A DNA stretch of 64,000 nucleotides from Escherichia coli (GCF_030013595.1 NZ_CP122768.1), one strand, 5' to 3'. Positions 4,416 to 59,052 are shown, counted from the first letter of the stretch. Notes: generated by a model from the letters alone, not told the origin. A program made the numbers and translations.

Positions 4416-4641
4416 ATCAGACTCCTGAGTAGTTTTTTAATTACAAACACCAACAATCTTAGTCAATAATTAATCTAATACCATCAAATAGTTAATCATG
4501 ATTTTTGTTTTGTGATTCTGATTAAGAAAAAGAAAATACCAGACGATAAGACAAAATATCAAGCGTTGTGAAGAAATGTTATGTGCTCTTTTGCGTCTAT
4601 AGTCATGATGTCAAATGAACGCGTTTCGACAGGAAATCATC

Positions 4642-5862
4642 ATGAATAAATATCAGGCAGTGATTATTGGTTTTGGCAAGGCTGGAAAAACATTAGCCGT
4701 CACGCTGGCAAAAGCAGGTTGGCGTGTGGCTCTCATCGAACAATCAAATGCAATGTATGGCGGGACCTGTATTAATATCGGCTGTATCCCAACCAAAACA
4801 TTGGTTCATGACGCACAGCAGCACACAGATTTTGTCCGTGCCATACAGCGTAAAAATGAAGTGGTTAATTTTTTACGTAATAAGAATTTTCATAATCTTG
4901 CGGATATGCCCAATATCGACGTGATCGACGGCCAGGCGGAGTTTATCAATAATCATAGCCTGCGTGTTCATCGGCCTGAGGGAAATCTGGAGATTCATGG
5001 CGAGAAAATTTTTATTAATACCGGTGCACAAACCGTGGTTCCGCCAATTCCTGGAATTACCACCACGCCTGGTGTATATGACAGCACCGGATTACTTAAT
5101 CTAAAAGAATTGCCTGGGCATTTAGGTATTTTGGGCGGCGGATATATTGGCGTTGAGTTCGCCTCTATGTTCGCTAATTTTGGCAGCAAGGTAACCATTT
5201 TAGAAGCAGCTTCGCTGTTTTTGCCTCGGGAAGATCGGGATATTGCTGATAATATCGCGACGATTTTACGCGATCAGGGCGTCGATATTATCCTCAATGC
5301 CCATGTGGAGCGAATCAGTCACCATGAAAATCAAGTGCAAGTGCATAGCGAGCACGCCCAACTGGCGGTGGATGCACTGTTAATAGCTTCCGGTCGTCAA
5401 CCAGCTACCGCTTCGTTACATCCAGAAAATGCCGGTATCGCAGTAAACGAGCGCGGGGCAATTGTCGTTGACAAGCGATTACATACCACCGCAGACAATA
5501 TTTGGGCGATGGGAGATGTTACCGGCGGGCTGCAATTTACTTACATATCACTAGATGATTACCGCATTGTACGTGATGAGTTACTGGGTGAAGGCAAACG
5601 TAGTACTGATGATCGGAAAAATGTGCCTTATTCCGTATTTATGACACCGCCCCTGTCCAGGGTTGGTATGACAGAAGAACAAGCCAGAGAGAGTGGTGCT
5701 GATATTCAGGTGGTGACATTGCCTGTAGCTGCAATTCCGCGCGCCAGAGTGATGAACGATACCCGTGGGGTATTAAAAGCGATTGTTGATAATAAAACCC
5801 AACGTATATTAGGGGCATCACTGCTGTGTGTTGACACGAGAGTATTCAAAACACGCCAATAA
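4642..5862 (+). pseudogene. rclA: rclA (pyridine nucleotide-disulfide oxidoreductase), 5' portion; reading frame leaves native sequence after ...LLCVD (about 5835) and ends in element-derived codons TRVFKTRQ*
   Basis: GFGKAG Rossmann motif, CINIGCIPTK redox-active disulfide; K-12 RclA is 441 aa, here first 398 aa then insertion. Confidence 0.8.
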
Positions 5863-5903
5863 CCTCTTGATTCAATTGAAGTCGAAAATTTTAAGTCAAA
5901 AAT

Positions 5904-5929
5904 CGTATAGCTTAACGTGTAGCTAAAAA
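5904..5929. repeat. Sub-terminal repeat cgtatagctTaacgtgtagctaaaaa (left copy), probable integrase-binding/att-associated site
   Basis: Near-identical copy at 16432-16457 (1 mismatch). Confidence 0.55.
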
Positions 5930-6479
5930 TGTTTGCTGCAAAAGTATACAATTTTAACCGTTATGACTCCCTGTTATCCGTTATCAAGCTGGTGGATGAT
6001 CATGGATAACCCGTTATGGGAATCCCCATATCGGCATCAGGCCCATGCCATAACAAAAACCCCATATTCGTGGGTTTTCTGTGTTGTGGCTATTCTGCCG
6101 TTGCCGTGCTGGTGGATATTTCCGGTATGTGGCTCACCATATCGGCATCACGCCCACCAGCGCGACGCATTTTTTTAATTTCGCGGGTGTAAAAATTTGA
6201 CGGGGCGGGCGGTCCTATAAGCAATGGGGGGTAGGGATTTCGATCCCCCCTCCTGAATGCAATTTTCCGTATGTGGCTGTGCGGCAATCATACTCGTCAC
6301 ATGTTTTTGACAATAAAAGGCCCGACCGTGAGACTCACAAACAAAAAAGTTACGGAGAAACAGGGGATCGGGCTCGGTTGCCGCTAAATCTATTCAATTA
6401 AAAGAAGATGTCAATAGGGAAAACGAAAAAAAACAATGCTGATATTGTCATAATTTGAACAAAACCACTATATGTAGTT

Positions 6480-6710
6480 TTAGTTCATGAGGTTAGTCGC
6501 TACCAGATGCGTCAATAGTTTTTTGCTATTAATAATCCCTCTTTTTCCATCGGGAGCTTTGCACTTGTCACTACCTGGTAACTCCTGGTGGCGTTCCTGT
6601 TGCAGCACAACGGAAACAGGCGCTGAACACCTGTTAATTTTGCTTGCAGGTTGTTTGATTTCGGCAATGCTGCGGATCATCTCCAGCATATCGGCTTCGG
6701 TGATGGTCAT
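6480..6710 (-). CDS. Hypothetical small protein (76 aa) in satellite
   Basis: ORF only; lies just beyond the cos-like repeat block. Confidence 0.25.
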   Translation of the reverse strand: MTITEADMLEMIRSIAEIKQPASKINRCSAPVSVVLQQERHQELPGSDKCKAPDGKRGIINSKKLLTHLVATNLMN

Positions 6711-6718
6711 GATTTACA

Positions 6719-6995
6719 CCTTAGGAAATCTTAGGGGCTGGTTGACACTTTCCGGCTTAAGACCTTAACAAATCTTAACATCGCAGGTTGACACACTTGA
6801 CACTTTTTCGCGAAAAACCTTATCAAACCTTAGCATTTCTAAGCATGGCAACTTGACACTTTTCGCGATTTTTTCGGCTTTTTGACGTGGTAAATCTGGC
6901 GCAAAGCCAGTAACGGCGGGGTTTACAGCGAGGTTGACACTTTTTCGCGTTCAGAGTGTAAAGTGTCAACCTGGCAAGCTGCTCAACTTGACACT
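6719..6995. repeat. Cos/pac-like repeat block: at least 6 direct copies of TTGACAC(TTTT) (6742, 6788, 6797, 6853, 6934, 6988) plus one inverted copy (6963) interleaved with CTTAnnAAAnCTTA repeats
   Basis: Repeats counted directly; adjacent to TerS-like gene. Confidence 0.5.
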
Positions 6996-7003
6996 TTTTG
7001 AGG

Positions 7004-7531
7004 TCATTGATGGCCTGATTTTTCCCACTCAGCCAGGGCGTTTAGTCCGGCTTCACTCCAGTTATCCAGCTCATCGGGACAATCACCTGCAACATAGCAG
7101 AGCTCACAACGCAGCATACGAATTGCCAGCCTGGCATTTTCCCGAAAATCATACTGCTCAAAGTAATATTGCCCAGCATAATCCTCAAGGCAGATAGCAC
7201 CATCATCAAGAAATTGCACTTCACAGCATAGTTCCCCGGCTGCATCCTGTACACGCTGCTGTATGTCATTGTCCGTTACTGGTGCAGGGATTTTACCGTC
7301 TCTGGCCTTAACTGCTTTCCAGAACTCGCCCCACGTCATTTCCAGCGTTCTCTCTGGCCACATTTCAGAAACGGTATCTTTTCCCTGTGCTGGTGGGCTG
7401 TTCCGCTGCTCTGTCGCTTCCACATCGATTTTTTTACCGGACATGACCACTTCGCCTTTCTCGATCCAGTCGTAAACTGTCTGGCGGCTTACGCCTTTGT
7501 GTTTGGCATATTCTGCCTTGCTCATAAACAT
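7004..7531 (-). CDS. Terminase small subunit-like protein (Nu1-type N-terminal HTH); candidate packaging-redirection protein (Rpp-like)
   Basis: N-terminus KAEYAKHKGVSRQTVYDWIEKG resembles lambda Nu1 HTH; no large terminase or capsid gene in element. Confidence 0.55.
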   Translation of the reverse strand: MFMSKAEYAKHKGVSRQTVYDWIEKGEVVMSGKKIDVEATEQRNSPPAQGKDTVSEMWPERTLEMTWGEFWKAVKARDGKIPAPVTDNDIQQRVQDAAGELCCEVQFLDDGAICLEDYAGQYYFEQYDFRENARLAIRMLRCELCYVAGDCPDELDNWSEAGLNALAEWEKSGHQ

Positions 7532-7701
7532 GACACTTCCCCTCAGACTGTATTAATGCGCCGGAAAGCGCGTGTATTTAAATCATCCCAGGAACCGTTG
7601 AGCACCAATTAGTTGCGCGAAGTAATCGGCACCAGCGTTCCGAACAATTTCCAACTTAACGTTCTGATCATTGTTTCCTGCTGCAGGGACAATCCCACGA
7701 T

Positions 7702-8355
7702 TCATAGCCAGCGCCCGGATATTTCTTCCAGTTTTTCCAGAGCTGGCTTGCAGGCCGCATCAATAACTTCACGGACCATTCCGGCGAGCTGTTCTTCTTC
7801 TGTCGGCGTTGTTACTTCCACACCTGATGGTTTCCCGCCCTTATCCCATACGCCCAACGGTACGAGCGCAACGTGATCGATAAGAAATGGCGTACCCTCA
7901 ATGAAAAAATTGTCCTCGCCCATTACATCAGGAACTTCTGCCCCACCGGACGCACCACAAAACACAACCGACGGGCTGGTGGATACCTCCCCCCGTGCTT
8001 TCTGGATGTAATCGATGATTTCCTGCCCGTAAATCCGGCATACGCCCCACACCTCGTCACCGCGAATATACGGCAACATGACGGTGCCAATAATGCGCGA
8101 CCGTTCGCCCACGTCTTCAAGGGTTTTGCTTTCGGGATGGTCGATAATGACGGGTACTCCGGCGCAACGTTCCAGGAACTGCGGATTGAGATAAGTTTGC
8201 GGTGAACGCCAGACAAATTCTTTTTCTTCGGCGCGATAGGCCATTCCGGTTCCTGTGATACGCAGGTTAATCAGCCACATGTTGGAAAACTGATAAGGCG
8301 ACGGTAGCTGACCGTCCCGAATCTGCTTTGCCGCCTCAATTTCTGTTAAAAGCAT
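7702..8355 (-). CDS. Hypothetical protein (217 aa), satellite morphogenesis/packaging region
   Basis: ORF with coding-like composition; no motif recognised. Confidence 0.45.
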   Translation of the reverse strand: MLLTEIEAAKQIRDGQLPSPYQFSNMWLINLRITGTGMAYRAEEKEFVWRSPQTYLNPQFLERCAGVPVIIDHPESKTLEDVGERSRIIGTVMLPYIRGDEVWGVCRIYGQEIIDYIQKARGEVSTSPSVVFCGASGGAEVPDVMGEDNFFIEGTPFLIDHVALVPLGVWDKGGKPSGVEVTTPTEEEQLAGMVREVIDAACKPALEKLEEISGRWL

Positions 8356-8419
8356 AATGTCCCCCGGTTATAAGCAATAAGCCCCACCAAATCCGGCAGG
8401 GCTGAAATCAGCACGTTTT

Positions 8420-9013
8420 TCATGCCCCCGCGAGGCTTGCAACGTTAATTTTAACCAGGCGACGGGGAGGGATTTTGAAAGCACTAAGCCAGTTATTCGG
8501 ATCCCCCTGATATTCAGTAATCCGCCGTCCGGCTTCATCCATTCTTACGGTTTTACGCAAATAGCCCGGCGTATTTTCCACAGCCCACTGAACACTGTCT
8601 TTTGCAGCCTGGTAAATCTGATCTTCCAGCACCGCCAGCGTTGCAGAATCTGAAACGGAACGAATATCCACATCACTGAATTTTTTAGCCAGCTTCTGTG
8701 CACCAATTAATGCACGCTTGCGGTAATCCATCGACTTTTCACCAGCAAACGGGGCTGGAGCGCGACGGCCCATATTGCTGTATGCGGAATCCGCTTTAGC
8801 CTGGGCTTCTGCCAGTGAGGATTCATCTTCGACTGACGCGACGATGTTTTTATTCGCGTCATCCTCGTCCGCTTTTGTGAAATCCTGTGCGGGGATCGCA
8901 TTCAGAATTTCGATAATCTCCTGCGGAGTGCTGCCCTGCGACTCTGACAGAGCGTTAACCACCTCCATCAGTTTTAATCGCAAATCTTCTTTGCTTGCTG
9001 GCATTTTTACCAC
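8420..9013 (-). CDS. Hypothetical protein (197 aa), acidic and Ala/Glu-rich, scaffold-like
   Basis: ORF; composition resembles phage scaffolding proteins (inference only). Confidence 0.4.
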   Translation of the reverse strand: MVKMPASKEDLRLKLMEVVNALSESQGSTPQEIIEILNAIPAQDFTKADEDDANKNIVASVEDESSLAEAQAKADSAYSNMGRRAPAPFAGEKSMDYRKRALIGAQKLAKKFSDVDIRSVSDSATLAVLEDQIYQAAKDSVQWAVENTPGYLRKTVRMDEAGRRITEYQGDPNNWLSAFKIPPRRLVKINVASLAGA

Positions 9014-9043
9014 CTCTCTTTTTTCACCAAAAAATCACGACCA

Positions 9044-9241
9044 TCAGGCCGGACGTTCTACGGGATAAAGCGCCCGCTGCATTAAACGCCGGGCGACCTC
9101 ATGAATGCTCGGAGCAATCCCCAGCGGAGAATTGCGGCGTTCCTCGTCCTGGATGCGCTGTAATGCTTCAATCTGATCACGAGCGAGTAAAACGGGTTTC
9201 ACGCTGGCTTTTCTCATAGTCATATCTCCTGAACAAAACAA
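9044..9241 (-). CDS. Hypothetical small protein (59-65 aa)
   Basis: ORF between PerC-like gene and the 197-aa gene. Confidence 0.3.
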   Translation of the reverse strand: MFCSGDMTMRKASVKPVLLARDQIEALQRIQDEERRNSPLGIAPSIHEVARRLMQRALYPVERPA

Positions 9242-9418
9242 TGATTATGATTGCACAAACTGAAATAACGATCTACATCATTGCAATTTATGAAACAATA
9301 ACGCATGATGATCGCGTTCTTCCCATTGACTTCAATCACCTGAAAAACAAAGCCCGCAACACTTCTGGCTGCGGGTTTTTTACTGGCACAAAAAAGCCGG
9401 GAAAAATCCCGGCCTCCG

Positions 9419-9706
9419 TCACTGACTGCAATTTTTCGATCCAGGGTATTTCCTGAATGCCTTACCATTGGGCTGATGTAATCCCATCCCGGCATGTGCC
9501 CGGCTGATGGTTTCGCGCATTTCCCCGAAATTATCCTGCCTTGCTGGTGGGCGTGCTGCCTTGCGGATACATTCCGCGCGACGTTTTGCCGCCTGTTCCC
9601 GTGCCTTGTCATCATTCGCCAGCATGATGACCTCAGCCCACCGCGCCGCCGCTCTCCGGTACAGACCACGCGCTTCCAGTGCTTCCGCTTTGCTGTCGTG
9701 AATCAT
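9419..9706 (-). CDS. PerC-family-like transcriptional activator (95 aa)
   Basis: Small basic protein with N-terminus MIHDSKAEALEARGLYRRAAARWAEV typical of prophage PerC homologs (from memory). Confidence 0.45.
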   Translation of the reverse strand: MIHDSKAEALEARGLYRRAAARWAEVIMLANDDKAREQAAKRRAECIRKAARPPARQDNFGEMRETISRAHAGMGLHQPNGKAFRKYPGSKNCSQ

Positions 9707-10245
9707 GCGCCTGTTTTCTCCTTTGCTGCCCGGCGCTGACGTTTGCGCTTCTCATTCAGCGCCACCAGCCGCGTTTCTGCGTCCTGTTGTTCCTGTGGTG
9801 TCACCTCGCCGCACGGCTGGCCTTTCAGGTCGTAGCGTACCCCACCAGCCATTAAGGCGCGGTAATAGCGCGGACACTGCGCATAAGATGCCAGCGTCGC
9901 ACGCAATGCCCCTGGACCGAATGCCAGCCCCCTGACGGCGAGATCCTGCATCAGGTCGTCGAATATCCCCACCTTAAGCGGCTTCGGTGCTTCCCGGCTG
10001 AATAATTCAGGCCACAACTCAGTGAGGCGGTTAACGCGCCTGCGGTTTTTGCGCTGGCGTTTGGTCATATGCCGCCACGGTGTCGCCCCTGTGGGCTTCT
10101 GCTGCGCTTTCTGGTTACCGGGCATCACTTTATGCGCCGATGTGGTTTTATCCTGCTCCTGCGCCGCCTGCGTCGTTTTCTGCGGCGTGCCGTAAATGCC
10201 TTTCGGTTTTCTGTTAATGGTCAGCTTAGTCATGCTTTGCCCCAT
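9703..10245 (-). CDS. ProQ/FinO-domain RNA-binding protein (180 aa)
   Basis: PKPLKVGIFDDL ... YAQCPRYYRAL ... RYDLKGQPCGEVT matches ProQ/FinO N-terminal domain pattern; K/R-rich tail. Confidence 0.6.
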   Translation of the reverse strand: MGQSMTKLTINRKPKGIYGTPQKTTQAAQEQDKTTSAHKVMPGNQKAQQKPTGATPWRHMTKRQRKNRRRVNRLTELWPELFSREAPKPLKVGIFDDLMQDLAVRGLAFGPGALRATLASYAQCPRYYRALMAGGVRYDLKGQPCGEVTPQEQQDAETRLVALNEKRKRQRRAAKEKTGA

Positions 10246-10392
10246 CGTTTTTACTGGTTGCTACGTTGCCCAACGGCACTGACACAACATTCTGTTTTCA
10301 TTTTTAACATTCCTGATTTTTTAATTCCTCACCTGCTGCACAGTGAAAATTTATGAAGTTAATAACAATATGATTTTAAATGTATTTTTAAG

Positions 10393-10713
10393 TACTCACT
10401 TTTTAATCCTTATATATACGCAAAAGTGAGGTAAATAGTTAAGTTTTAGTTAATATCTTGCATGGTGTGTTTTTTAACCTACCTGTTATTTTTATTACCT
10501 CATTTCTATTAACTCACCATTCCTCACTTTTGTTCCTCACTTTTTATTATTCTTGTTCTGCTCCTCAGTCGTTTTCTTTATTGTTGTAATCTGTTGTTTT
10601 GCAATGTGTTTTTAACTCCTCACTTTTTGACCTATATACAGGTGAGAAAGTGAGGAGTGGCGTTGATTTTTTGTTAAATTACCCGCCATCCTCACTTTTG
10701 CTCCTCACTTTTT
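10393..10713. repeat. Iteron-type replication origin: at least 7 copies of CCTCACTTTT (direct and inverted) in AT-rich DNA immediately 3' of rep
   Basis: Copies at about 10395, 10421 (inv), 10522, 10534, 10617, 10645 (inv), 10691, 10703. Confidence 0.6.
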
Positions 10714-12127
10714 ACAGTGGGCGCACATAATCACCGTCAATAGCGATTACGCCGTCGCTTTCCAGCTTGTACAGCCAGCGCCGGAAGTTTTTCATTTCAT
10801 ACCCCAGCTTTTTCATATCATCGCGGAGAAGGGCGATAGTGCACGCCTCCCCGTGTGCTGTTCGCGTTCTGATGCACTGCCATAGCGCAGCGTGATTTTC
10901 CGTCTTGTTCCCGGCCTCCTCGATGCGTTCCAGTTCAACAGGTGGGCGCGGCTTATCCACAACCACCAGCGACGTGATTAACTCCCCGTCAGTGTCGGTA
11001 AAAAGCTCCACCACGCGTAAATCATATGCAGCCTCTTTCAGTTCCTCCGCGTCCTTCATTTTGGTGCAGGAGATAACCAGGGCTTCACTGTCCGCACCTT
11101 CACGGCGAATACGGTATTCAGCGTCCAGAGATGCACGAAATGCACTGGAACCACGCGCCCCTTTTGTTTCATCCTTGCCGGAATGGTGAACCACCAGTAC
11201 CGTGGCCCCTGTGCGTCGTTTCAGTTCGTCACATCCACGGATAAACGCCCCCATATCCCGCGCGTCATTTTCATCATTACCGCCAAAGCAACGCGCCAGC
11301 GTATCCAGAATAATCATGCGTACCGGTTTACCCGTTTCCCGTTCAACCTGACGGGAAGCGATGACCATTTCATCAACATCAAGCGGGACCGCCGGAAAAA
11401 TCGGGCGGTTTACCAGGTACAGATTTTTCACCCGTTCATCATTAACGATTTCCCATGCTTTGATACGACGAGGAACACCGATCCCGCCCTCACCAACGAC
11501 ATACATAACCGCACCATGTACAACCCTGCGACCTCCCCAGTGGCGACCAGTGGCAACATGACACGCCCAGGAACACGCGAGGAACGATTTATAGGAACCG
11601 CTCGCGCCGTATGTGCTGCACAACGAATTAGCCGGAATCACGCCCTTAACGACATAATCAAGCTGTGTGTCGTATCCTGCAGATCCAATACTCATTGGTA
11701 GCGTGGTTTTTCGCTGGCTGTATTGCTCGTCAGTAAGTATTTCCCCGCGCTCTGCCTGTTCGCGGATCCGTTGCAGGTAGTCGTGCCAGTTCTCCAGCTT
11801 CTGGCTGTGCATTCCCTCAGGGTAATAATTCGCATCCCGTACACCTGCCGCCGCCAGTTTTTGCCCGATGGCATTAATATTTGACGGCTTGATGTGGCCT
11901 GCCTTGTACAGCCGGACACAATAGCGACCATCGTCGATAATTTTCAGGTCTGCCAGTTCGTCAAGCTGGCTGTCTCCCAGCCATACAGGCGGAACATTGT
12001 CGCCAGCAAGTCGCCCGTCCTGTTCCTGCCATTGTTTCGCGTGCGCCCAGGCATCACTACCCGCAAAAATAATGACTTCGGTCATTTTGTCGTGTGGCTG
12101 TTTTTTTAAGTTCGGTGCCAGTTTCAT
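10712..12127 (-). CDS. RepA-like replicative helicase / AAA_25-type ATPase (471 aa)
   Basis: Walker A GASGSYKS, Walker B MIILDTL, VVHHSGK; adjacent iterons. Confidence 0.7.
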   Translation of the reverse strand: MKLAPNLKKQPHDKMTEVIIFAGSDAWAHAKQWQEQDGRLAGDNVPPVWLGDSQLDELADLKIIDDGRYCVRLYKAGHIKPSNINAIGQKLAAAGVRDANYYPEGMHSQKLENWHDYLQRIREQAERGEILTDEQYSQRKTTLPMSIGSAGYDTQLDYVVKGVIPANSLCSTYGASGSYKSFLACSWACHVATGRHWGGRRVVHGAVMYVVGEGGIGVPRRIKAWEIVNDERVKNLYLVNRPIFPAVPLDVDEMVIASRQVERETGKPVRMIILDTLARCFGGNDENDARDMGAFIRGCDELKRRTGATVLVVHHSGKDETKGARGSSAFRASLDAEYRIRREGADSEALVISCTKMKDAEELKEAAYDLRVVELFTDTDGELITSLVVVDKPRPPVELERIEEAGNKTENHAALWQCIRTRTAHGEACTIALLRDDMKKLGYEMKNFRRWLYKLESDGVIAIDGDYVRPL

Positions 12128-12423
12128 TTTGTGCCCCTGAATGCGTTAATCATGTTTTTCATTTTCTGAATATTTGCCCGTGCCTTTGCGTTGCTGGTGG
12201 GCTGTTTGCGTGGTGTGGCCTGTATCAGTGAAAAATCACGCCGGAACTGATAAACAGGCATCACGCAGTCGTAGCTGTACCCATCACGGCGGTAAGTAAC
12301 GCACCGTCCGGCAATACTTTTAATCGTTACCGTGCCGCCGTAGTTATCCCGGAAAATATCGCCGGGGCGGATTTCAGGCCGAGGGAGACCACTGGCAGTA
12401 AAGCCAGAATTTTTCTTTTTCAT
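12124..12423 (-). CDS. Hypothetical protein (99 aa), translationally coupled to rep (4-bp overlap)
   Basis: ORF; operon packing. Confidence 0.45.
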   Translation of the reverse strand: MKKKNSGFTASGLPRPEIRPGDIFRDNYGGTVTIKSIAGRCVTYRRDGYSYDCVMPVYQFRRDFSLIQATPRKQPTSNAKARANIQKMKNMINAFRGTK

Positions 12424-12427
12424 GGTT

Positions 12428-12628
12428 TTATTTTCCTGTCAGCAGTTCCGGTTTTATTTCCGCACGAATACAGAGTTCAGAAAAAAATTCAGGAGAACCA
12501 ACAATCTCATTACTTTTCAGTCGGCATTGTGATTTCACTTTCCCTTTATCCAGGTAAACCAGTATGCGTCCGGTGAAATCATCTGGCACACTCAGGGTAA
12601 TTGTCATTGTTGCTTGCTGATTATCCAT
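12428..12628 (-). CDS. Hypothetical protein (66 aa) with one FTG-x-LV repeat unit
   Basis: Shares about 50-aa repeat with upstream 121-aa protein. Confidence 0.4.
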   Translation of the reverse strand: MDNQQATMTITLSVPDDFTGRILVYLDKGKVKSQCRLKSNEIVGSPEFFSELCIRAEIKPELLTGK

Positions 12629-12986
12629 GATTCACCCCCTGAATAACCTGATAACCGCAACTGGTCAGCAATTCGATAAATTCCGGCAGTGTTCCGAAAC
12701 AGCAATCATCTCGCAGCCGTTCTCGGGATACTTCAACGCCGTTTTCGTAGTGACTCACCATGCGTCCGGTAAAATGCAGATCATCATCGTGATGGCTCGT
12801 TAACGGCTTAATCAGTCGCGCACGTTCTGCCAGCTCCAGCAATGCTTCAACGCTTCCGGCAATTGCACCATCCGGCAGGTGATAATTACTTGCCACGCGT
12901 CCATTCTCCACGTTAACCAGTAGCTGCCCGGTGAATTTCTCATCAAACTGAATGCTGTTAAGGTCAGAAATTGACAGGTTAATCAT
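12621..12986 (-). CDS. Hypothetical protein (121 aa) with two internal FTG-x-LV repeat units
   Basis: Internal duplication visible in translation; 8-bp overlaps with neighbours. Confidence 0.45.
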   Translation of the reverse strand: MINLSISDLNSIQFDEKFTGQLLVNVENGRVASNYHLPDGAIAGSVEALLELAERARLIKPLTSHHDDDLHFTGRMVSHYENGVEVSRERLRDDCCFGTLPEFIELLTSCGYQVIQGVNHG

Positions 12987-13344
12987 GGCGTACCTCCTGG
13001 CGAATACGGGCAGCGAATACCATCACGCAGCCATCAGGAGATTGCTGGCGTGCTTCCTGTTCGCTGGTGGCCACGATGTGAATCACGCGCGGTTGTGCGG
13101 TGCTCAGGGCGATAAAACGCCAGATAAAATTGTTTTCGCATTTCTGAATAAACAGCGTGTTTTCTTCGCGCCCTTTCCATGTTGCCGAGATATAGCCCAT
13201 GCCATTGAGCATCTCGCAGGCATCAACCAGCGTATCAGCGGCTACGTGTACAGTGTTTTTACCGTCAGCTATGCAATCACGGTGCACCGCCAGGAAGGTG
13301 TATATAAATTTAGGGTGAGTTTGGGTATGCTGTGTTCCAGCCAT
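12979..13344 (-). CDS. Hypothetical protein (121 aa); first gene of alpA-distal operon
   Basis: ATG at 13344 with AGGT RBS; the 478-aa ORF-track extension to 14415 is judged spurious. Confidence 0.45.
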   Translation of the reverse strand: MAGTQHTQTHPKFIYTFLAVHRDCIADGKNTVHVAADTLVDACEMLNGMGYISATWKGREENTLFIQKCENNFIWRFIALSTAQPRVIHIVATSEQEARQQSPDGCVMVFAARIRQEVRHD

Positions 13345-13545
13345 AATCGTTACCTCATTTAACGGTTTGGTTAGAAGCCCCGTTACTGCTCCAACAGTGC
13401 GGGGCTTCGTCGTTTCAATTGCTGAATTGCATGTATCAGCCCTTGTGGTATTCAGATTACATTTTGGTGAATACCATTTCAAGTCTTTTTTGGTATTCAC
13501 TTTTGTATTACACTGCATCCCGTTATTAATCGGAGGTGCAAACAT

Positions 13546-13849
13546 GTCCACGAGTTCTGTTAACAATAAGTCACAGCAACTGAATGCCAGATTTCCACAT
13601 GAAGTAGTGAGTGGCATTGAGGCATCCCTACAGCCAGGGGAAACTAAAGCGAATTTTATAGTTACGGCTGTACGCGGTGAGATCGCCCGCCGCCAGGCAG
13701 AAGGAAGCGGAGAAAACCCCCTGGTTTCTTCGCTCGATGCGCTGGCGCAGGTGGAAAAAATCGGAGTCAAAGCTGCCGAGGAGATCGGGCAGCTCGTCAC
13801 CGTCGCACGTGAAGAACTCCAGCGCCGCAAGGCCAAAGAATCAGAATAA
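13546..13849 (+). CDS. Putative ribbon-helix-helix-like DNA-binding protein (101 aa), divergent from the rep operon
   Basis: GGAGG RBS; inverted repeats TGGTATTCA / TGAATACCA at about 13445-13500 upstream. Confidence 0.4.
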
Positions 13850-13906
13850 TAACTATCATCGCCGTGGTGTGAGGAACTCCGGCGCATTGCTTTACAGGTA
13901 CACAGA

Positions 13907-14107
13907 ATGACCAACAAAGAATCAACCAAAACACCATCACCAACCCGGAAGAGACGTCGCAAAAATATGACGCACGAGCATGAATCAGACAGATTCGCGC
14001 CGTGTGCGTTTGTCCTTGAGACGTTCCTTAAAGAGTACAGGCGCACAAAATTAGGGCCACATACCTGGAAAACATCGCGACATAGCGATATTAAAGAGCA
14101 GGAATAG
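13907..14107 (+). CDS. Hypothetical small basic protein (66 aa)
   Basis: ORF downstream of RHH-like gene; R/K-rich N-terminus. Confidence 0.3.
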   Translation: MTNKESTKTPSPTRKRRRKNMTHEHESDRFAPCAFVLETFLKEYRRTKLGPHTWKTSRHSDIKEQE

Positions 14108-14240
14108 CCCACCAGCAAGTCAGCATATTCACCATAATGACCCTCGGTTAAACCTAGAGTCATTGGTGCAAACCTGACACATTGCCCACCAGCCAGCAAA
14201 TCGCTATGATATTTGGGCTTATGTTTAGTGTTTTCCCATT

Positions 14241-14268
14241 GGCGACCGCCCCCGGTCGCCTTTGTTTT
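14241..14268 (+). terminator. Rho-independent terminator (GGCGACCG-cccc-CGGTCGCC + T-run)
   Basis: Perfect 8-bp stem followed by TTTGTTTTG. Confidence 0.55.
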
Positions 14269-14321
14269 GCCCGTTATCCGGCAATTGTGGCGCTTCGCCA
14301 CACGGTTGATATAATTCCCCT

Positions 14322-14392
14322 GCACTGATCCATTTTTTTCGCAGCAGGTTAATTGTTCGCAAGGGCGCTCCGGCAACGGGGCGCTTTTTGTT
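14322..14392 (+). ncRNA. Candidate ~70-nt small RNA: extended -10 (TGaTATAAT, 14307-14315) to terminator hairpin 14361-14389 with GNRA-like loop and T-run
   Basis: Promoter-like element and terminator ~70 nt apart in a 310-bp non-coding gap, convergent with alpA 3' end. Confidence 0.3.
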
Positions 14393-14419
14393 ATGTTCAT
14401 CGCGTTACGCCTCACACCA

Positions 14420-14626
14420 TTACGCAGCCGTTCCGCGCGCTTCTTCCTCGCGCTCTTTCAGCCAGGCCAGCACTTCATCTTCATACCAGCCAACACGACG
14501 CAGACCGATTTTGAAGCCTTTCGGGAATTTTCCGGCGTTGATCATGTCCTGTAGCGAACTGTCTGCCTTGATGCGCAGAATATTTTTTACTTCCTGACGG
14601 GTAAGTATTTTTCTGATTGTTTCCAC
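14420..14626 (-). CDS. alpA: AlpA-family transcriptional regulator (68 aa)
   Basis: Typical AlpA/Vis-like size and HTH (LRIKADSSLQDMINAGKFPKGFKIG) next to integrase. Confidence 0.75.
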   Translation of the reverse strand: METIRKILTRQEVKNILRIKADSSLQDMINAGKFPKGFKIGLRRVGWYEDEVLAWLKEREEEARGTAA

Positions 14627-14690
14627 TATGTTTTACCTCGTTAATCCGGCGTATTCCGGTGATAAATACGGTAAAACAGGGCAGGGCGGG

Positions 14691-14732
14691 AAAAACAGTA
14701 CCCACCGTTTTAAAACGGTACCCACTGTTTTT
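14691..14732. promoter_or_regulatory. Tandem operator-like sites AAAAC(A/G)GTACCCAC(C/T)GTTTT x2 upstream of alpA
   Basis: Two 20-bp near-identical units in the alpA promoter region. Confidence 0.4.
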
Positions 14733-14795
14733 ATCTCATTGATTACGCTTTTCTTTCTGCAAAAAAATAGCGACCGCAAAGGGCCGCTATTGTGA

Positions 14796-15026
14796 TTACC
14801 GTTTCCACTTCTTAGGTCGCCCACCGCATTTAAGGCTGGTGGGCCTCAGCACCTTGTCGATGCTTTCAGCCAGATTTTTCGATGCACCACGCGAGCGCAA
14901 AAAACTGACTACCTCGTGTTTTGTGGGGGCTGTTGATTTGTCTTCCGGATCGTATGTTGACCAGAATTCACGATTTGCCATTAACGCCAGTTGCAGCCCT
15001 TCGCCGTAGGCGGTGGTATTTTGCAT
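14796..15026 (-). CDS. Hypothetical small protein (76 aa) between int and alpA
   Basis: ORF only. Confidence 0.25.
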   Translation of the reverse strand: MQNTTAYGEGLQLALMANREFWSTYDPEDKSTAPTKHEVVSFLRSRGASKNLAESIDKVLRPTSLKCGGRPKKWKR

Positions 15027-15124
15027 AATAGAATTTTCATATACTCCGGCCTTGTCGTTAAATTTGTGGCAATTATACGATGGTTTGGCATGGTTTGCAT
15101 CGCTTTTACTGGCTTTTTGTACAG

Positions 15125-16366
15125 CTACACGGCACGGATACCCCTTTTACCGCTGGCTATGGTCACTCCGGTAGCTGCAGCCTCCACAAATTCACCCCAC
15201 CAGCGCATAAGCACCACGCGCTTTTCCAGGTAGTTACTTCGGTTATATGCCCGCCTTACCTCGTTCGTGTCCACGTGTGCGAGTGCGGCCTCGATTACGT
15301 CCGGTTCGAATCCTTCCTCGTTCGCTGCTGTGCTGAATATGGCGCGTAATCCGTGAGACACCAGCACACCAGCGTAACCCATCCGGCGTAATGCAGCGTT
15401 AGCGGTCTGGCTGCTCATTGGCAGCATCGGATTTTTAAGGCTGGGAAAAACGTGTTCCCTGTGTGCGCTGATTGGCTTCATGGTTTCCAGTACAGCCATA
15501 GCCTGACCGCAAAGGGGGATCACATGGTCACGGCGCATCTTCATGCGTCCGGCTGGAATCGTCCAGGTTTCGGCATCGAGATCTATTTCTTCCCAGCGTG
15601 CGGCGGCTGCTTCGGCTGGGCGTGCTACGGTCAGCAGTTGCCACTCAATCAGCAATCTGGTTTGCCGTTCTATGCTGGCGACCGATAAATCGTGCATTAG
15701 CTGCGGTAGCTGTTCCGGTCGGATGGTTGGCATGTGCTTTTTGGTGGGTGAGGGGAATGCCTTGCGGACGTTCGCGGCGGTGTTGATGTCAATCAGCCCA
15801 CTGTTGGCGGCAAAATCCATCACTTCATTGATGCGCTGCAAAACGCGTTTCAGAGTTTCCAGGTTGCCGCGTGCTTTAATGGGGGTGAGTATCTCAACAA
15901 AGCGGCGAGCGGTGAGGGTATCTATTGGCGTGTTTCCGATGTACGGGAATACGTATTTTTCCAGGGATCGCCAGATATCCTTAATCGTGTTGTAAGCCAG
16001 ATTCTGGCCTTTTTTCATCTCGTACCAGTCCGAGGCAACTTTTTCGAACGTGTTGCCCTTTTTCCGGCTCTCTGCTTCACGTTTCCGGCGTTCATGGTCC
16101 TGTGGGTCAGTTCCCTTTGCTATTAGTGACCTGTATTCATTCCGTCGCTCTCTGGCATCAGACAGGGAAACATCATTCAGCGATCCAAGGCTGATAATAG
16201 TCCGTTTTTTATCTGCCGGGCGGTAGTACGTAAAACGCCATATTTTTGATCCGGAGGGCTTCACCAGAAGAAATAATCCTCCGCCATCCTGCAGGGTGTA
16301 TTCCTTTTCCCCTGGTCGTGCGTTTTTGATCTCCGTAATGGTTAGTGGGGTGGTTTTTCGTGCCAT
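15125..16366 (-). CDS. Tyrosine site-specific integrase (P4-type, 413 aa)
   Basis: N-terminal arm-binding-like region and C-terminal catalytic domain (HGLRAIFST ... R..Y); adjacent repeat cluster. Confidence 0.85.
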   Translation of the reverse strand: MARKTTPLTITEIKNARPGEKEYTLQDGGGLFLLVKPSGSKIWRFTYYRPADKKRTIISLGSLNDVSLSDARERRNEYRSLIAKGTDPQDHERRKREAESRKKGNTFEKVASDWYEMKKGQNLAYNTIKDIWRSLEKYVFPYIGNTPIDTLTARRFVEILTPIKARGNLETLKRVLQRINEVMDFAANSGLIDINTAANVRKAFPSPTKKHMPTIRPEQLPQLMHDLSVASIERQTRLLIEWQLLTVARPAEAAAARWEEIDLDAETWTIPAGRMKMRRDHVIPLCGQAMAVLETMKPISAHREHVFPSLKNPMLPMSSQTANAALRRMGYAGVLVSHGLRAIFSTAANEEGFEPDVIEAALAHVDTNEVRRAYNRSNYLEKRVVLMRWWGEFVEAAATGVTIASGKRGIRAV

Positions 16367-16380
16367 GTTTTTTTACCCAT

Positions 16381-16457
16381 CGGTAGCTATATGCCTGGTC
16401 GTAGCTATACGGCTTTAGCTACACGCTGGACCGTATAGCTAAACGTGTAGCTAAAAA
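16381..16457. repeat. Integrase-proximal repeat cluster (GTAGCTATAC / CGTATAGCTA / CGTGTAGCTA inverted and direct units) including right copy of sub-terminal repeat (16432-16457)
   Basis: Matches left copy at 5904-5929. Confidence 0.55.
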
Positions 16458-16509
16458 ATCCGGTTATAACCCTATCTTACCGATTCAATCCGGCGACTGA
16501 AAACAACAA

Positions 16510-16543
16510 AAAAGCCCGTTAATCAGTAAATTAACGGGCTTTC
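16510..16543 (-). terminator. Hairpin AGCCCGTTAAT-loop-ATTAACGGGCT with T-run on minus strand
   Basis: 11-bp stem; on the minus strand followed by TTTTTTGTTGTTTT. Confidence 0.4.
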
Positions 16544-16555
16544 AATAGGTTACCG

Positions 16556-16710
16556 ATGCTGTCCGATATTCAATTTGGTCGGCACGAGATGATCAATATA
16601 GTGAAAATGGTGATGGATGCCGGGCTGCCTTATAGCATATTACGCGATCAGATATTTACTCATCCGTCGATGAGCGAATCACTCAATGATCTATTTTCAT
16701 TAGTCAAATA
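16556..16710 (+). pseudogene. rclA: rclA 3' remnant encoding ...HEMINIVKMVMDAGLPYSILRDQIFTHPSMSESLNDLFSLVK*
   Basis: Matches remembered RclA C-terminal dimerisation region; in-frame ATG at 16556 is element-derived. Confidence 0.7.
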
Positions 16711-16819
16711 AACTCAAAATCAGACGCCAGAACAAATATTCTGGCGTCTCAGAGAAAAGAATCTTATTAATTCCCTGTTACTTTATAACTTCTTAATCAC
16801 TTCATTGATGGTATTTTAT

Positions 16820-38025: not shown

Positions 38026-38059
38026 CTATAATCGCGGGGCTTCGTTTTTCAGGGATAAC
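38026..38059 (+). terminator. Terminator after ykgJ (GCCCCGC ... GCGGGGC + T-run)
   Basis: Stem-loop with TTCGTTTTT. Confidence 0.55.
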
Positions 38060-38241
38060 AAAACCCGAAACTTCTTCCATCTGCCAGCAACAATGCCTCT
38101 TCCTCTATAGTGTTCTCCGGATCTACAGCATCCTGAAGTAGCGCGATGTACTCATTGGCTATCTGCATCAGAAAGTTAAAAACAATGTTTTTAACCTATA
38201 AAAATGGCGCTTTATTTGCGCCATTTTTATCATTCAATGCA

Positions 38242-58681: not shown

Positions 58682-58898
58682 CAGCTTTTCCTTACAGAGG
58701 GTGAATAAAAAAGCCGGTACCCACAAATATGGGTACCGGCAGGTACAAAACAGCATGGTCAGATAAAGTGGTTTTTCCCGGACATAAATGCTTCTCCTCT
58801 CTCATCCGCCAGAGAAGTATCAGTCCGTTGTGTGCAATTCCGTTCTGCATGATGAAGAGATTCAGCTGCCTTTTCGCAGACCATTAACCACTATAAAC

Positions 58899-58934
58899 GA
58901 TCGATGGTAACGATCGATACATGTTTTATCGATC
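58899..58934. promoter_or_regulatory. Three GATC (Dam) sites at 58899, 58912, 58931 in Ag43 upstream region: OxyR/Dam phase-variation switch
   Basis: cGATCGATggtaacGATCGATacatgttttatcGATCGtttt, 220-250 bp upstream of flu start. Confidence 0.65.
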
Positions 58935-59052
58935 GTTTTATTCTATTAACAGCAAGGCAGTCACGCAAGAGAAAGAGGTGGGTATGAGGTGTTTGTGTCA
59001 TGTTTTCAGTTGGTTAACGCAATGTAATCAGGCATTTCCCCTGGCAGAGTGT

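What the first reader, a model, noticed from the sequence alone, without database searches (positions are those of the whole stretch)
12124..14107. Uncharacterised small-gene cluster between alpA and rep: four coupled genes plus a divergent RHH-like pair
Between the regulator alpA and the replication gene lie four tightly overlapping minus-strand genes (12979-13344, 12621-12986, 12428-12628, 12124-12423) for which I recognise no family. Two of them share an internal roughly 50-aa repeat containing FTGxLLV...G.V.S, present twice in the 121-aa protein and once in the 66-aa protein. Divergent from them is a plus-strand pair (13546-13849 putative ribbon-helix-helix; 13907-14107 small basic protein) preceded by the operator-like inverted repeats TGGTATTCA / TGAATACCA (about 13445-13500). 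In satellites this position is a typical cargo site, so the cluster is a candidate for an undescribed accessory function (interference, immunity or replication control).
Basis: inference. Interest (0 to 1): 0.6.

Follow-up and report, generated by a model that had tools for sequence, protein, structure and literature searches.

The report
Satellite control switch with overlapping genes
The "uncharacterised cluster" is the conserved control region of an E. coli phage satellite (PICI), laid out like phage P4's early operon, and it appears to hold an undescribed repressor switch, an antisense RNA and a long reading frame running backwards through the repressor genes.

Summary
The six ORFs, the roughly 50-aa repeat and the operator-like repeats are real. 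They are not orphan cargo. The window carries a ~10.7 kb PICI-type satellite inserted in rclA.

The same frame recurs in about 85 islands, including the prototype EcCICFT073: int, alpA, then RHH and a small basic gene on the opposite strand, then a Kil/Icd-like gene, 0-5 small cassettes, DUF4222 and a replicase. Only the cassette slot varies, and it holds the two repeat genes.

- g1 belongs to the P4 Kil family.
- g4 is DUF4222.
- g5 is a YlcI/YnfO-type ribbon-helix-helix (RHH) protein.

Three comparative results go beyond the finding:

1. Sixteen RHH N-terminal classes each carry a private 2-4-copy repeat, placed over a conserved divergent promoter pair. This looks like a repressor/operator immunity switch.
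2. The Kil frame stays stop-free for at least 750 nt upstream in 64 of 72 loci. It runs from the alpA stop, antisense through g6, g5 and the operators, like P4 eta/kil.
3. The leader hairpin is a plus-strand terminator, which implies an antisense RNA over the Kil ribosome-binding site.

All mechanisms are inferred from sequence. Verdict: a new variant of a known kind; interest about 0.6.

The parts
14420..14626 (-). alpA (68 aa HTH activator/excisionase-type). This is the upstream gene of the chain. It lies outside the finding but belongs to the unit.
   Evidence: ORF. PHROG 66/2790 'excisionase and transcriptional regulator'. Annotated as an HTH regulator in related islands.
12979..14415 (-). 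Long eta-like ORF of 478 aa. It has a GTG at 14415, 4 nt after the alpA stop, and an ATG at 14400 preceded by GAGG. It runs antisense through g6, g5, the operators and the leader, and ends in frame as g1.
   Evidence: Listed. The frame is stop-free for at least 750 nt upstream of the Kil motif in 64/72 loci, against 13-16 stops in the other two minus frames. It is open across 16/17 unrelated operator-region sequence groups. Its first start codon abuts the upstream gene's stop in 59/64 loci. Parts that do not overlap g5 or g6 show no codon-position bias.
14361..14393 (+). Intrinsic terminator t2 for the g5-g6 transcript (12-bp stem followed by TTTTTGTT). There is no U-run on the minus strand, so alpA transcripts should pass.
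   Evidence: Terminator scan. The sequence is conserved as 'SAPLPERPCE' in the long-ORF alignment.
14241..14270 (+). Intrinsic terminator t1 for the g5-g6 transcript (GGCGACCGCCCCCGGTCGCC followed by TTTGTTTT).
   Evidence: Terminator scan.
13907..14107 (+). g6, a 66-aa basic protein with the invariant motifs RFAPCAF and FLKEYR. Function unknown.
   Evidence: PHROG 21027 at 6.8e-31. Alignment A2. 172 relatives in IMG/VR. Substitutions 292/207/548, and indels occur only in multiples of 3.
13544..13849 (+). g5, a YlcI/YnfO-type ribbon-helix-helix protein and the proposed repressor. The RHH domain is residues ~9-52. The helical insert at residues ~53-94 is absent in the 59-aa versions.
   Evidence: NF041551 at 1.3e-16. 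hhalign against Arc/Mnt-type proteins: 92.1% probability, E = 6.2e-7. Arc-like RHH proteins occupy the same position in other islands. Substitutions 64/15/240.
13506..13511 (+). Candidate -10 (TATTAC) of the g5 promoter. Other classes carry TGTGTATACT at the same place.
   Evidence: Read from the aligned upstream regions. Not found by the consensus scan. Inferred.
13446..13500 (.). Three operator copies of TGGTATTCA: O1 13446-13454 (+), O2 13467-13476 (-), O3 13491-13500 (+), spaced 22-23 bp.
   Evidence: these are the only exact copies in 64 kb. Class-specific equivalents are present in all 16 RHH classes and absent from every other class.
13454..13482 (-). Predicted promoter of the Kil-like operon (the analogue of P4 PLE). 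The -35 is TTGAAA (13482-13477) and the -10 is TAATCT (13459-13454). O2 fills the 17-nt spacer and O1 covers the -10/+1 region.
   Evidence: TTGAC/TTGAA and a -10-like hexamer are conserved at this position across the operator classes. Not detected by the simple scan. Inferred.
13374..13420 (+). Conserved hairpin followed by a T-rich tail. Proposed to be the terminator of a short plus-strand RNA antisense to the g1 leader, SD and start codon.
   Evidence: Plus-strand MFE averages -23.4 kcal/mol against -17.1 on the minus strand, and the plus strand is more stable in 35/38 variants, with 95 versus 13 G-U pairs. 7 of 11 pairs show compensatory changes.
13326..13347 (+). Candidate -10 elements for the antisense RNA in this island: TATGCT at 13326-13331 and CATAAT at 13342-13347. 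Weak.
   Evidence: In 33/58 unique relatives a clear extended -10 (TGGTATGAT or TGGTATAAT) sits at a fixed 37 nt from the hairpin and 4 nt before the start-codon complement. The window's own version is poorer.
12979..13344 (-). g1, a Kil/Icd-like protein of 121 aa. The family domain is residues 73-116, and the N-terminal half resembles the N-terminus of P4 Kil. It is the first gene after the internal promoter.
   Evidence: NF033153 at 5.7e-23. P4 Kil scores 1.6e-21 on the same model. BLASTP of the g1 N-terminus against P4 Kil gives E = 4e-5.
12621..12986 (-). g2, a variable cassette of 121 aa made of two copies of a ~50-aa beta-beta-beta-alpha unit.
   Evidence: PHROG 340 with two stretches. 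Internal repeat at E = 2e-6. AF2 secondary structure. Recombinant single-repeat forms of 67-91 aa exist. Present in only some islands.
12428..12628 (-). g3, a variable cassette of 66 aa with one copy of the same unit.
   Evidence: PHROG 340 at 4.8e-17. E = 5e-9 against g2. Present in only some islands.
12124..12423 (-). g4, a DUF4222 protein of 99 aa. In relatives it always lies immediately upstream of the replicase, and here it overlaps it by 4 nt.
   Evidence: Pfam PF13973 at 8.5e-23. It is adjacent to Pri, RepA or DUF927 replicases in all loci examined.
10712..12127 (-). RepA-type helicase/replicase of 471 aa, the last gene of the coupled chain. It lies outside the finding.
   Evidence: PHROG 2850 at 2.5e-248. 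Annotated 'helicase RepA family protein'.

Best explanation
The region is the early-control and immunity region of a Gram-negative PICI satellite. It is organised like the left operon of satellite phage P4 (vis, eta/kil, small genes, primase), but the repressor is a protein rather than an RNA.

**Shown by comparison**
- g1 is a member of the P4 Kil family.
- g5 is an RHH protein.
- Each RHH class has its own repeated motif lying over a conserved divergent promoter pair.
- The Kil frame is kept open back to alpA.
- The leader hairpin is selected on the plus strand.

**Inferred mechanism, quiescent state**
- g5 binds O1-O3, shuts off the Kil-operon promoter and autoregulates its own promoter.
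- The g5-g6 mRNA runs antisense to the long ORF and stops at t1/t2, just short of alpA.
- A short antisense RNA masks the ribosome-binding site of the probably toxic Kil-like gene.

**Inferred mechanism, induced state**
- A helper phage switches on alpA.
- Transcription from the alpA promoter continues past alpA.
- Ribosomes pass from alpA into the long eta-like ORF and translate across about 1.4 kb, through the operators.
- This keeps Rho from terminating the transcript and overrides the switch.
- Kil, the cassettes, DUF4222 and the replicase are then expressed.

**Cassettes**
g2 and g3 are exchangeable small cassettes in the slot that holds the helper-derepression gene epsilon in P4. Their function is unknown; action on the helper or the host is only a positional guess.
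For: **Satellite context**
- The island carries int, alpA, RepA, ProQ/FinO, PerC and DUF2213 genes and is inserted in rclA.

**Same frame elsewhere**
- The frame is present in EcCICFT073.
- It recurs in about 85 loci with three replicase types and two alpA/int types.

**Kil family**
- g1 and P4 Kil both hit NF033153.
- P4 has the same arrangement of vis followed by a long ORF ending in Kil.

**RHH repressor and operators**
- RHH assignment rests.
- Bona fide Arc-like proteins replace g5 in the same position in some islands.
- Operators: three exact copies in the window and nowhere else in it.
- All 16 classes have private repeats; none is shared between classes, and 63/67 members keep their class motif.
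- The repeats sit in the spacer and at -10/+1 of a conserved TTGAC...TA promoter.

**Long ORF**
- 64/72 loci are stop-free for 750 nt.
- 16/17 unrelated operator sequences are open in the Kil frame.
- The ORF abuts the upstream gene in 59/64 loci.
- Substitution pattern is flat and indels are common where it does not overlap g5 or g6, so openness rather than protein sequence is selected.

**Antisense RNA**

**Literature**
- AlpA is an activator, it is needed for expression of downstream genes, and no repressor is known (PMC6092414).
- The P4 eta/kil logic is summarised in PMC10111431.
Against: - Nothing here is experimental. No transcript ends, no binding and no translation data were available.
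- The association between RHH class and operator could partly reflect linkage, because the two are adjacent and could be inherited as one block.
- The simple promoter scan did not call any of the three promoters.
- The antisense-RNA promoter is weak in this particular island.
- The AF2 model of g5 was poor (pLDDT 65) and did not show the strand.
- No PDB sequence relative was found for the YlcI family.
- Eight of 72 loci have stops in the Kil frame, although another frame is nearly open in them.
- The long ORF could encode a real 'Bro-network' protein, as PMC10111431 assumes, rather than a spacer.
- No role can be assigned to g6, g2, g3 or DUF4222.
Confidence: 0.6

Rival explanations
1. Accessory cargo. 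The cluster would be a moron-like set of small genes carried for anti-phage interference or host benefit, unrelated to control of the satellite's own cycle.
For: - The slot between the Kil-like gene and DUF4222 is highly variable: 0-5 cassettes, at least six families, many recombinant forms.
- P4 carries its helper-derepression gene in the equivalent place.
- Megablast shows mosaicism: 1843 genomes match part of the region, but only 2 cover at least 80% of it.
Against: - Four of the six genes (g1, g4, g5, g6) keep their positions across about 85 islands.
- No PADLOC model matches.
- The operators and promoters point to regulation.
- This reading could be true only for g2 and g3.
Confidence: 0.2
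2. g5 and g6 form a type II toxin-antitoxin (addiction) pair. An RHH antitoxin would autoregulate its own promoter, and the small basic protein would be the toxin that stabilises the island.
For: - The gene order is RHH first, then a small protein.
- g5 has a weak Pfam hit to the VapB-type PSK_trans_fac family (E = 0.46).
- g6 is conserved and basic.
Against: - g6 matches no toxin family in Pfam, NCBIfam or PADLOC.
- The operators cover the -35/-10 of the divergent Kil-operon promoter, not only the g5 promoter.
- g5 and g6 are separated by 57 nt and are not coupled.
Confidence: 0.08
3. The long minus-strand ORF is the only real gene between alpA and g1 (an Eta/Bro-network protein), and the plus-strand g5 and g6 are shadow ORFs.
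For: - The ORF is conserved as open.
- In CFT073 its N-terminus carries a Bro-N/AntA-like remnant.
- PMC10111431 treats this zone as Bro-network genes.
- PGAP sometimes calls a longer 'Icd-like' protein of 184 aa.
Against: - g5 shows the coding signature in its own frame: position 2 is the most conserved (15 against 64), which is the opposite of what the antisense frame predicts.
- g5 matches curated NCBIfam and PHROG families, and the RHH fold by profile comparison.
- Arc-like proteins replace it at the same place.
- The long-ORF translation is rich in Cys, Ser and Arg, and it is unconstrained wherever it does not overlap g5 or g6.
Confidence: 0.07

Closest known systems
Satellite phage P4 left operon: PLL - vis - eta/kil (nested, PLE internal) - epsilon - orf151 - orf106 - alpha
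   Same: - An alpA/vis-type gene is followed directly by a long ORF whose C-terminal ~65 aa is a Kil-family protein. NF033153 hits both P4 Kil and g1.
- Small genes follow, and then a primase or helicase.
- An internal promoter is inferred inside the long ORF.
- The logic that translating the long ORF lets upstream-promoter transcripts read through is taken from P4, as summarised in PMC10111431.
   Different: - P4 immunity is the CI RNA acting on seqA/seqC. No C4 or isrK-type RNA was found here even at E <= 10.
- Instead there is a divergently transcribed RHH gene with three operators and a second small gene, both encoded antisense inside the long ORF. P4 has no such genes there.
- The ORF is longer: 304-576 aa in the sampled relatives and 478 aa here, against about 200 aa in P4.
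immI regions of P22 (mnt | arc-ant, sar RNA) and P1 (c4 RNA - icd - ant)
   Same: - RHH repressors (Arc, Mnt) control a promoter.
- A short cis-antisense RNA lies over the ribosome-binding site of the first gene.
- An Icd-type small toxic protein and Ant/Bro-type ORFs lie in the same operon.
- Some related islands carry Arc-like proteins that align with P22 Arc and Mnt.
   Different: - The context is a satellite with alpA and a replicase downstream.
- There is no detectable sequence match to sar or c4. The only hit is a chance-level terminator match to sar at E = 8.8.
- The RHH gene is divergent and lies antisense within an ORF.
EcCICFT073 and other Gram-negative PICIs (AlpA-activated)
   Same: - Identical gene frame: int, alpA, YlcI/YnfO, Icd-like, small ORFs, DUF4222, replicase.
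- The window's island is a member of this group of elements.
   Different: - Published descriptions draw all genes as co-directional.
- They state that a global repressor is not evident (PMC6092414) and describe the zone as Bro-network genes with immunity RNAs (PMC10111431).
- The RHH/operator classes, the antisense overlap and the antisense RNA were not found in the searched literature.
SaPI / Gram-positive PICI Stl-Str divergent repressor module
   Same: A divergently transcribed repressor gene sits between int and the replication operon and controls that operon.
   Different: - Stl proteins are large HTH repressors that are relieved by binding a helper protein. Here the candidate is a small RHH.
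- Induction is thought to go through the AlpA activator and read-through.
- There is no sequence relationship.

Membership tests
NF033153 phage_ICD_like (P4 Kil / Icd-like small proteins) | HMM score above the curated cut-off of 25 bits | tested here: met
   g1 scores 80.7 bits, E = 5.7e-23, over residues 73-116. P4 Kil scores 76.1 bits and the CFT073 Icd-like protein 69.9 bits on the same model.
NF033153 phage_ICD_like (P4 Kil / Icd-like small proteins) | Overexpression kills cells or blocks cell division | not testable with these tools
The property is known for P4 Kil and P1 Icd from the literature, recalled from my own knowledge and from the summary in PMC10111431.
P4-type nested eta/kil arrangement | An in-frame N-terminal extension of the Kil ORF reaches the end of the alpA/vis gene | tested here: met
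   - The ORF 14415-12979 starts 4 nt after the alpA stop.
- 64/72 relatives are open for at least 750 nt.
- The ORF abuts the upstream gene in 59/64 loci.
- P4 has the same arrangement.
P4-type nested eta/kil arrangement | A constitutive promoter (PLE) lies inside the long ORF, upstream of kil | tested here: inconclusive
   A conserved -35 TTGAC/TTGAA and a -10-like hexamer were seen by alignment. The consensus scan did not call them, and no transcript data are available.
P4-type nested eta/kil arrangement | Immunity by a CI/C4-type RNA with seqA/seqC targets | tested here: not met
   An Rfam scan of 11900-15200 at E <= 10 found no C4 or isrK match, and nothing reached gathering score in the window.
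P4-type nested eta/kil arrangement | Translation of eta suppresses Rho-dependent termination | not testable with these tools
   This is inferred only from selection for an open frame without constraint on the amino-acid sequence.
Ribbon-helix-helix (Arc/MetJ) DNA-binding proteins | An N-terminal strand, helix A, a G-x-S/T turn and helix B, detectable by profile comparison | tested here: met
   - hhalign of 15 YlcI-type classes against an Arc/Mnt-type set: 92.1% probability, E = 6.2e-7, 46 columns.
- NF041551 YlcI_YnfO_N at 60.3 bits against a cut-off of 30.
Ribbon-helix-helix (Arc/MetJ) DNA-binding proteins | The predicted or solved structure shows the RHH fold | tested here: inconclusive
   The single-sequence AF2 model had pLDDT 65, with the strand region modelled as helix or coil. 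No PDB sequence relative was found.
Ribbon-helix-helix (Arc/MetJ) DNA-binding proteins | Binds repeated operator half-sites near its own promoter | tested here: inconclusive
   Class-specific repeats occur in all 16 classes, with none shared between classes. Binding itself was not tested.
Pfam DUF4222 (PF13973) | Pfam HMM match | tested here: met
   g4 matches at i-E = 8.5e-23 over the full model, positions 1-53. It also hits PHROG 285.
Gram-negative PICI (EcCICFT073 type) | int, alpA and a replicase in the conserved order, in a roughly 10-15 kb island at a specific att site, without a full phage structural or lysis module | tested here: met
   - The island spans about 5860-16550 and is inserted in rclA.
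- Its gene frame is identical to EcCICFT073.
Gram-negative PICI (EcCICFT073 type) | Induction and packaging by a helper phage | not testable with these tools
Known anti-phage defence systems (PADLOC-DB 2.0) | Any component matches a defence-system model | tested here: not met
   No hit for any of nine proteins at E <= 0.1.
Type II toxin-antitoxin pair | The downstream partner belongs to a toxin family | tested here: not met
   g6 has no Pfam, NCBIfam or PADLOC hit and no PDB relative.

The most novel reading that the evidence does not exclude
Gram-negative PICIs do have a master repressor. It is a small RHH protein that exists in at least 16 immunity specificities. Its gene, together with a conserved partner gene, is encoded antisense inside a translated eta-like 'anti-polarity' ORF, and it is backed up by a cis-antisense RNA over the Kil start. 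AlpA-driven read-through, kept alive by translation of the long ORF, is how helper induction overrides this switch.
Probability: 0.45. Interest if true: 0.75.

Novelty: new variant of a known kind. Interest (0 to 1): 0.62.

Why it matters
How E. coli-type PICIs stay silent, and how a helper phage switches them on, is an open question. The founding paper found only an activator, AlpA, and states that a global repressor is not evident (PMC6092414).

A conserved RHH gene with class-specific operators over the replication-operon promoter gives a concrete candidate for that repressor. It can be tested with simple experiments.

The many specificity classes would also explain how related satellites can coexist in one cell without cross-repressing each other.

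The region would be a clear natural case of long antisense gene overlap, about 500 nt, conserved across many lineages. It would also be a case of an ORF selected to be translated rather than to encode a particular protein. Both bear on genome annotation, because PGAP and other pipelines call different subsets of these genes.

Finally, the result ties PICIs to P4. These two satellite families have been described as fundamentally different in organisation.

Tried and rejected
- **Rfam.** Nothing reached gathering score in the region, and only chance-level hits appeared at E <= 10 (SCARNA13, snoRNAs, the terminator part of sar/RsaJ). A P4/P1-type immunity RNA is therefore rejected for this island.
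- **PADLOC.** No hits, so a known defence system is rejected.
- **tblastn against phage genomes.** g2 and g5 against 50,697 phage records gave no match. The Icd-like domain hit only one 16.5 kb 'induced prophage' record. These are satellite genes, not ordinary phage genes.
- **Pfam.** Only DUF4222 matched. One YlcI class hits DUF3950. PF27490 is listed for two g2 homologues but is not in the Pfam copy that was searched.
- **Structure.**
  - AF2 of g5 without an alignment was poor.
  - AF2 of g2 with 14 sequences gave pLDDT 65.7.
- **PDB sequence searches.** Searches for g4, g6, g2 and the RHH profile gave nothing meaningful.
- **Representative-protein search for g2.** Only 24 hits. One 1558-aa hit is a low-complexity artefact.
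- **Genome-collection scan.** A scan of one genome per species with the Icd-like pattern found nothing.
- **Literature.** Forti et al. 1999 (PMC94026) is not held, so the P4 mechanism is cited through PMC10111431 and from memory.
- **Phase of g5 against the long ORF.** The cross-locus count (39 of 58) used a loose motif and is not relied on. The g6 phase (59 of 59) and the window's own arithmetic are reliable.

Full report
**1. What is at the coordinates**

The window is E. coli chromosome. A ~10.7 kb island (about 5860-16550) interrupts the 3' end of rclA. The N-terminal part of rclA lies at 4615-5862 and the C-terminal remnant at 16556-16711.

Read on the minus strand, the island contains:
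- int (16366-15125)
- a 76-aa ORF
- alpA (14626-14420)
- the finding
- a RepA-type helicase (12127-10712)
- ProQ/FinO-like, PerC and DUF2213 genes, and an HTH protein

This is the make-up of a Gram-negative phage-inducible chromosomal island (PICI).

All six ORFs of the finding exist. The only correction is that g5 starts at 13544, not 13546. Each gene shows an excess of third-position substitutions against homologues.

**2. Families**

The genes are not orphans.

| Gene | Assignment | Evidence |
|---|---|---|
| g1 | NF033153 phage_ICD_like | 5.7e-23, |
| g4 | Pfam DUF4222 | 8.5e-23, |
| g5 | NF041551 YlcI/YnfO | 1.3e-16, |
| g2, g3 | PHROG 340 | |
| g6 | PHROG 21027 | |

No PADLOC defence model matches.

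Homologues of g2 include many recombinants that have lost part or all of one repeat, at 67-91 aa.

**3. Core or cargo**

RefSeq annotation of related islands shows one constant frame. This includes the prototype EcCICFT073.

In 80 IMG/VR loci plus the reference loci, the frame is: Int, AlpA, then g6 and RHH on the opposite strand, then Kil/Icd-like, 0-5 cassettes, DUF4222 and a replicase. It holds whether the replicase is a primase, RepA or DUF927, and whichever int/alpA type is present.

Only the slot between the Kil-like gene and DUF4222 varies. It holds different combinations of at least six small-gene families, g2 and g3 among them. The cassettes are joined by short overlaps in which the upstream C-terminus encodes the next gene's Shine-Dalgarno sequence.

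So four of the six genes are core, and two are exchangeable cassettes.

**4. The RHH gene and its operators**

TGGTATTCA occurs three times, at 13446(+), 13468(-) and 13491(+), and nowhere else in the 64 kb.

Across the loci, the protein encoded upstream of g6 falls into 16 N-terminal sequence classes. Fourteen are YlcI-type. Two are Arc-like, with the motif PPYQMRLP.

Each class has its own 8-13-bp motif, present 2-4 times at about 22-25-bp spacing at the same positions. Examples are GAATCACA, GTGTTGAACAC, CTGGATTCCAG, GTGTAAGACAC, GGTGTCAGCCAC, AGGTGTGGCCCAC and GGTAATTACC.
- None of the 16 class motifs occurs even once in the region of any other class.
- 63 of 67 members keep at least two copies of their class motif.

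The YlcI-type N-domain aligns with Arc/Mnt-type proteins at 92% probability, E = 6.2e-7.

The flanking sequence is conserved across classes. On the minus strand it shows a -35 (TTGAC or TTGAA) and a -10-like hexamer. One motif copy fills the spacer and another covers -10/+1. In the window these are TTGAAA at 13482-13477 and TAATCT at 13459-13454. On the plus strand a -10 (TGTGTATACT, or TATTAC in the window) precedes the RHH gene.

This is the anatomy of a repressor/operator switch on divergent promoters. Binding itself is inferred, and linkage of adjacent DNA is a caveat.

**5. The long ORF**

The ORF list shows a 478-aa minus-strand ORF (14415-12979) that contains g1 in frame. It runs antisense through the leader, the operators, g5 and g6. 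I expected it to be a chance ORF. It is not.
- In 64 of 72 loci the Kil frame has no stop in the 750 nt upstream of the Kil motif. The other two minus frames average 13 and 16 stops.
- The 135-nt operator region is unrelated in sequence between classes, yet it is open in that frame in 16 of 17 sequence groups.
- The first start codon lies within -53 to +15 nt of the stop of the upstream co-oriented gene (alpA or an AntA/Bro-type gene) in 59 of 64 loci. In the window the GTG is 4 nt after the alpA stop, and an ATG at 14400 has a GAGG upstream.
- Where the ORF does not overlap g5 or g6, substitutions are evenly spread over codon positions (221/212/243 and 47/53/59). One- and two-base indels between relatives are common. 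The translation is Cys/Ser/Arg-rich.

Selection therefore seems to act on keeping the frame open, not on the protein.

In the window, the third codon positions of the long ORF coincide with those of g5 and g6 (by arithmetic, consistent). The same holds for g6 in 59 of 59 loci. In that phase, antisense stops can be avoided by synonymous choices in g5 and g6.

The substitution pattern of g5 (position 2 most conserved, 15 against 64) fits the plus-strand frame, so g5 is not a shadow ORF.

**6. The P4 parallel**

In P4 (NC_001609), vis is the alpA homologue. It is followed by a long ORF (8812-8168) whose last 65 aa are Kil.

P4 Kil scores 1.6e-21 on NF033153, like the PICI proteins. The N-terminus of g1 matches the N-terminus of P4 Kil at E = 4e-5.

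The old P4 'cI' CDS over this ORF is annotated as 'transcriptional repressor'. The same name is attached to PHROGs 6196 and 1743, which g1 hits.

According to the summary in PMC10111431 and my recollection of Forti et al. 1999:
- eta is translationally coupled to vis.
- The constitutive promoter PLE lies inside eta.
- Kil is the nested short product.
- Translation of eta lets transcripts from the upstream promoter escape termination.

The PICI region has the same skeleton. It lacks a CI/C4-type RNA and has the RHH/g6 pair instead.

**7. An antisense RNA**

The hairpin at 13374-13408 lies in the g1 leader. It is conserved with compensatory changes in 7 of 11 pairs.

It is selected on the plus strand:
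- Mean MFE is -23.4 kcal/mol on the plus strand against -17.1 on the minus strand.
- The plus strand is the more stable in 35 of 38 variants.
- There are 95 G-U pairs on the plus strand against 13 on the minus.

A T-rich tail follows on the plus strand.

In 33 of 58 unique relatives, an extended -10 (TGGTATGAT or TGGTATAAT) sits at a fixed 37 nt upstream. That places it 4 nt before the complement of the Kil start codon.

This predicts a plus-strand RNA of roughly 60-85 nt, fully complementary to the SD and start of the Kil-like gene. In the window the candidate -10 elements (TATGCT at 13326, CATAAT at 13342) are weaker, so this element is the least secure part here.

**8. Proposed working**

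*Quiescent state.* The RHH occupies O1-O3, represses the Kil-operon promoter and autoregulates. Its mRNA with g6 runs antisense to the long ORF and ends at the plus-strand terminators at 14241-14270 and 14361-14393. The antisense RNA blocks leaky Kil translation.

*Induced state.* The helper raises AlpA, which is an activator needed for downstream expression (PMC6092414). Transcription from the alpA promoter continues. Coupled translation of the long ORF protects the transcript from Rho and carries RNA polymerase through the switch into Kil, the cassettes, DUF4222 and the replicase.

All of these steps are inference from anatomy and from the P4 precedent.

The functions of g6, DUF4222, g2 and g3 remain unknown. 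DUF4222 is always next to the replicase. It also occurs next to xis in the CFT073 lambdoid prophage.

**9. Novelty**

The genes are annotated hypothetical proteins in a well-studied family of elements. The P4 eta/kil logic is known, and PMC10111431 already likened this 'Bro zone' to P4.

I found no description in the searchable literature of the following:
- the RHH/operator classes
- the conserved antisense overlap of two protein genes with the long ORF
- the antisense RNA

The 2018 PICI paper states that a repressor is not evident.

I rate this as a new variant of a known kind, with interest about 0.6.

Noticed in passing
window 4615-5862 and 16556-16711: The satellite is inserted in the 3' end of rclA (ykgC). 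The N-terminal 415 codons end in a short foreign tail, and the original C-terminal 51 codons lie beyond the integrase. No tRNA gene is present anywhere in the window.
   Followed up: partly
L087 (P4, NC_001609) 8168-8584: The P4 record still carries the historical 'cI gene product (AA 1-137), transcriptional repressor' CDS over what is now known as eta/kil. PHROGs 6196 and 1743, which g1 hits, carry the same 'transcriptional repressor' name.
   Followed up: partly
window 12979-12986, 12621-12628; loci L002, L006: Cassette junctions share a stereotyped 8-nt overlap, ATGnnTAA, preceded by GGAGGT or GGGGGT. As a result the upstream proteins end in ...Q(E/G)V.H. followed by a stop. This shared junction may be the site where cassettes are exchanged.
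   Followed up: partly
proteins P0033, P0038, P0046-P0048 (homologues of g2): Many natural variants of g2 are deletions between the two repeats (67-91 aa). In some genomes g2 is fused in frame to a different downstream cassette (169-196 aa).
   Followed up: partly
L005 15192-15431 (CFT073 lambdoid prophage): A DUF4222 gene also sits directly beside the excisionase remnants of the helper-type lambdoid prophage. The family is therefore shared between helpers and satellites.
   Followed up: no
window 14796-15026 and 14766-14791: A 76-aa ORF lies between int and alpA. It has no family hit, and a terminator-like hairpin on the minus strand follows it. Related islands have a different small ORF at this position.
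   Followed up: no
L035, L056, L064, L066, L075, L086 (IMG/VR loci): Some islands carry two Icd-like domains, or two RHH/g6 modules in tandem. This suggests duplication or insertion of a second immunity module.
   Followed up: no
L006 (EcCICFT073) long ORF N-terminus; L004 6212-7012: In CFT073 the long ORF begins with a truncated Bro-N/AntA-like segment. In the O104:H4 island a complete AntA/AntB gene lies between alpA and the long ORF and overlaps its start.
   Followed up: partly
window 38036-38236, 55344-55467, 58700-58936: Rfam matches above the gathering score lie elsewhere in the window: IS009, the STnc490 Hfq-binding RNA and IS102 RNA. They are unrelated to the finding.
   Followed up: no
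window 19916-24169: A 1417-aa intimin/invasin-like adhesin gene (eaeH type) lies about 3.5 kb from the island.
   Followed up: no
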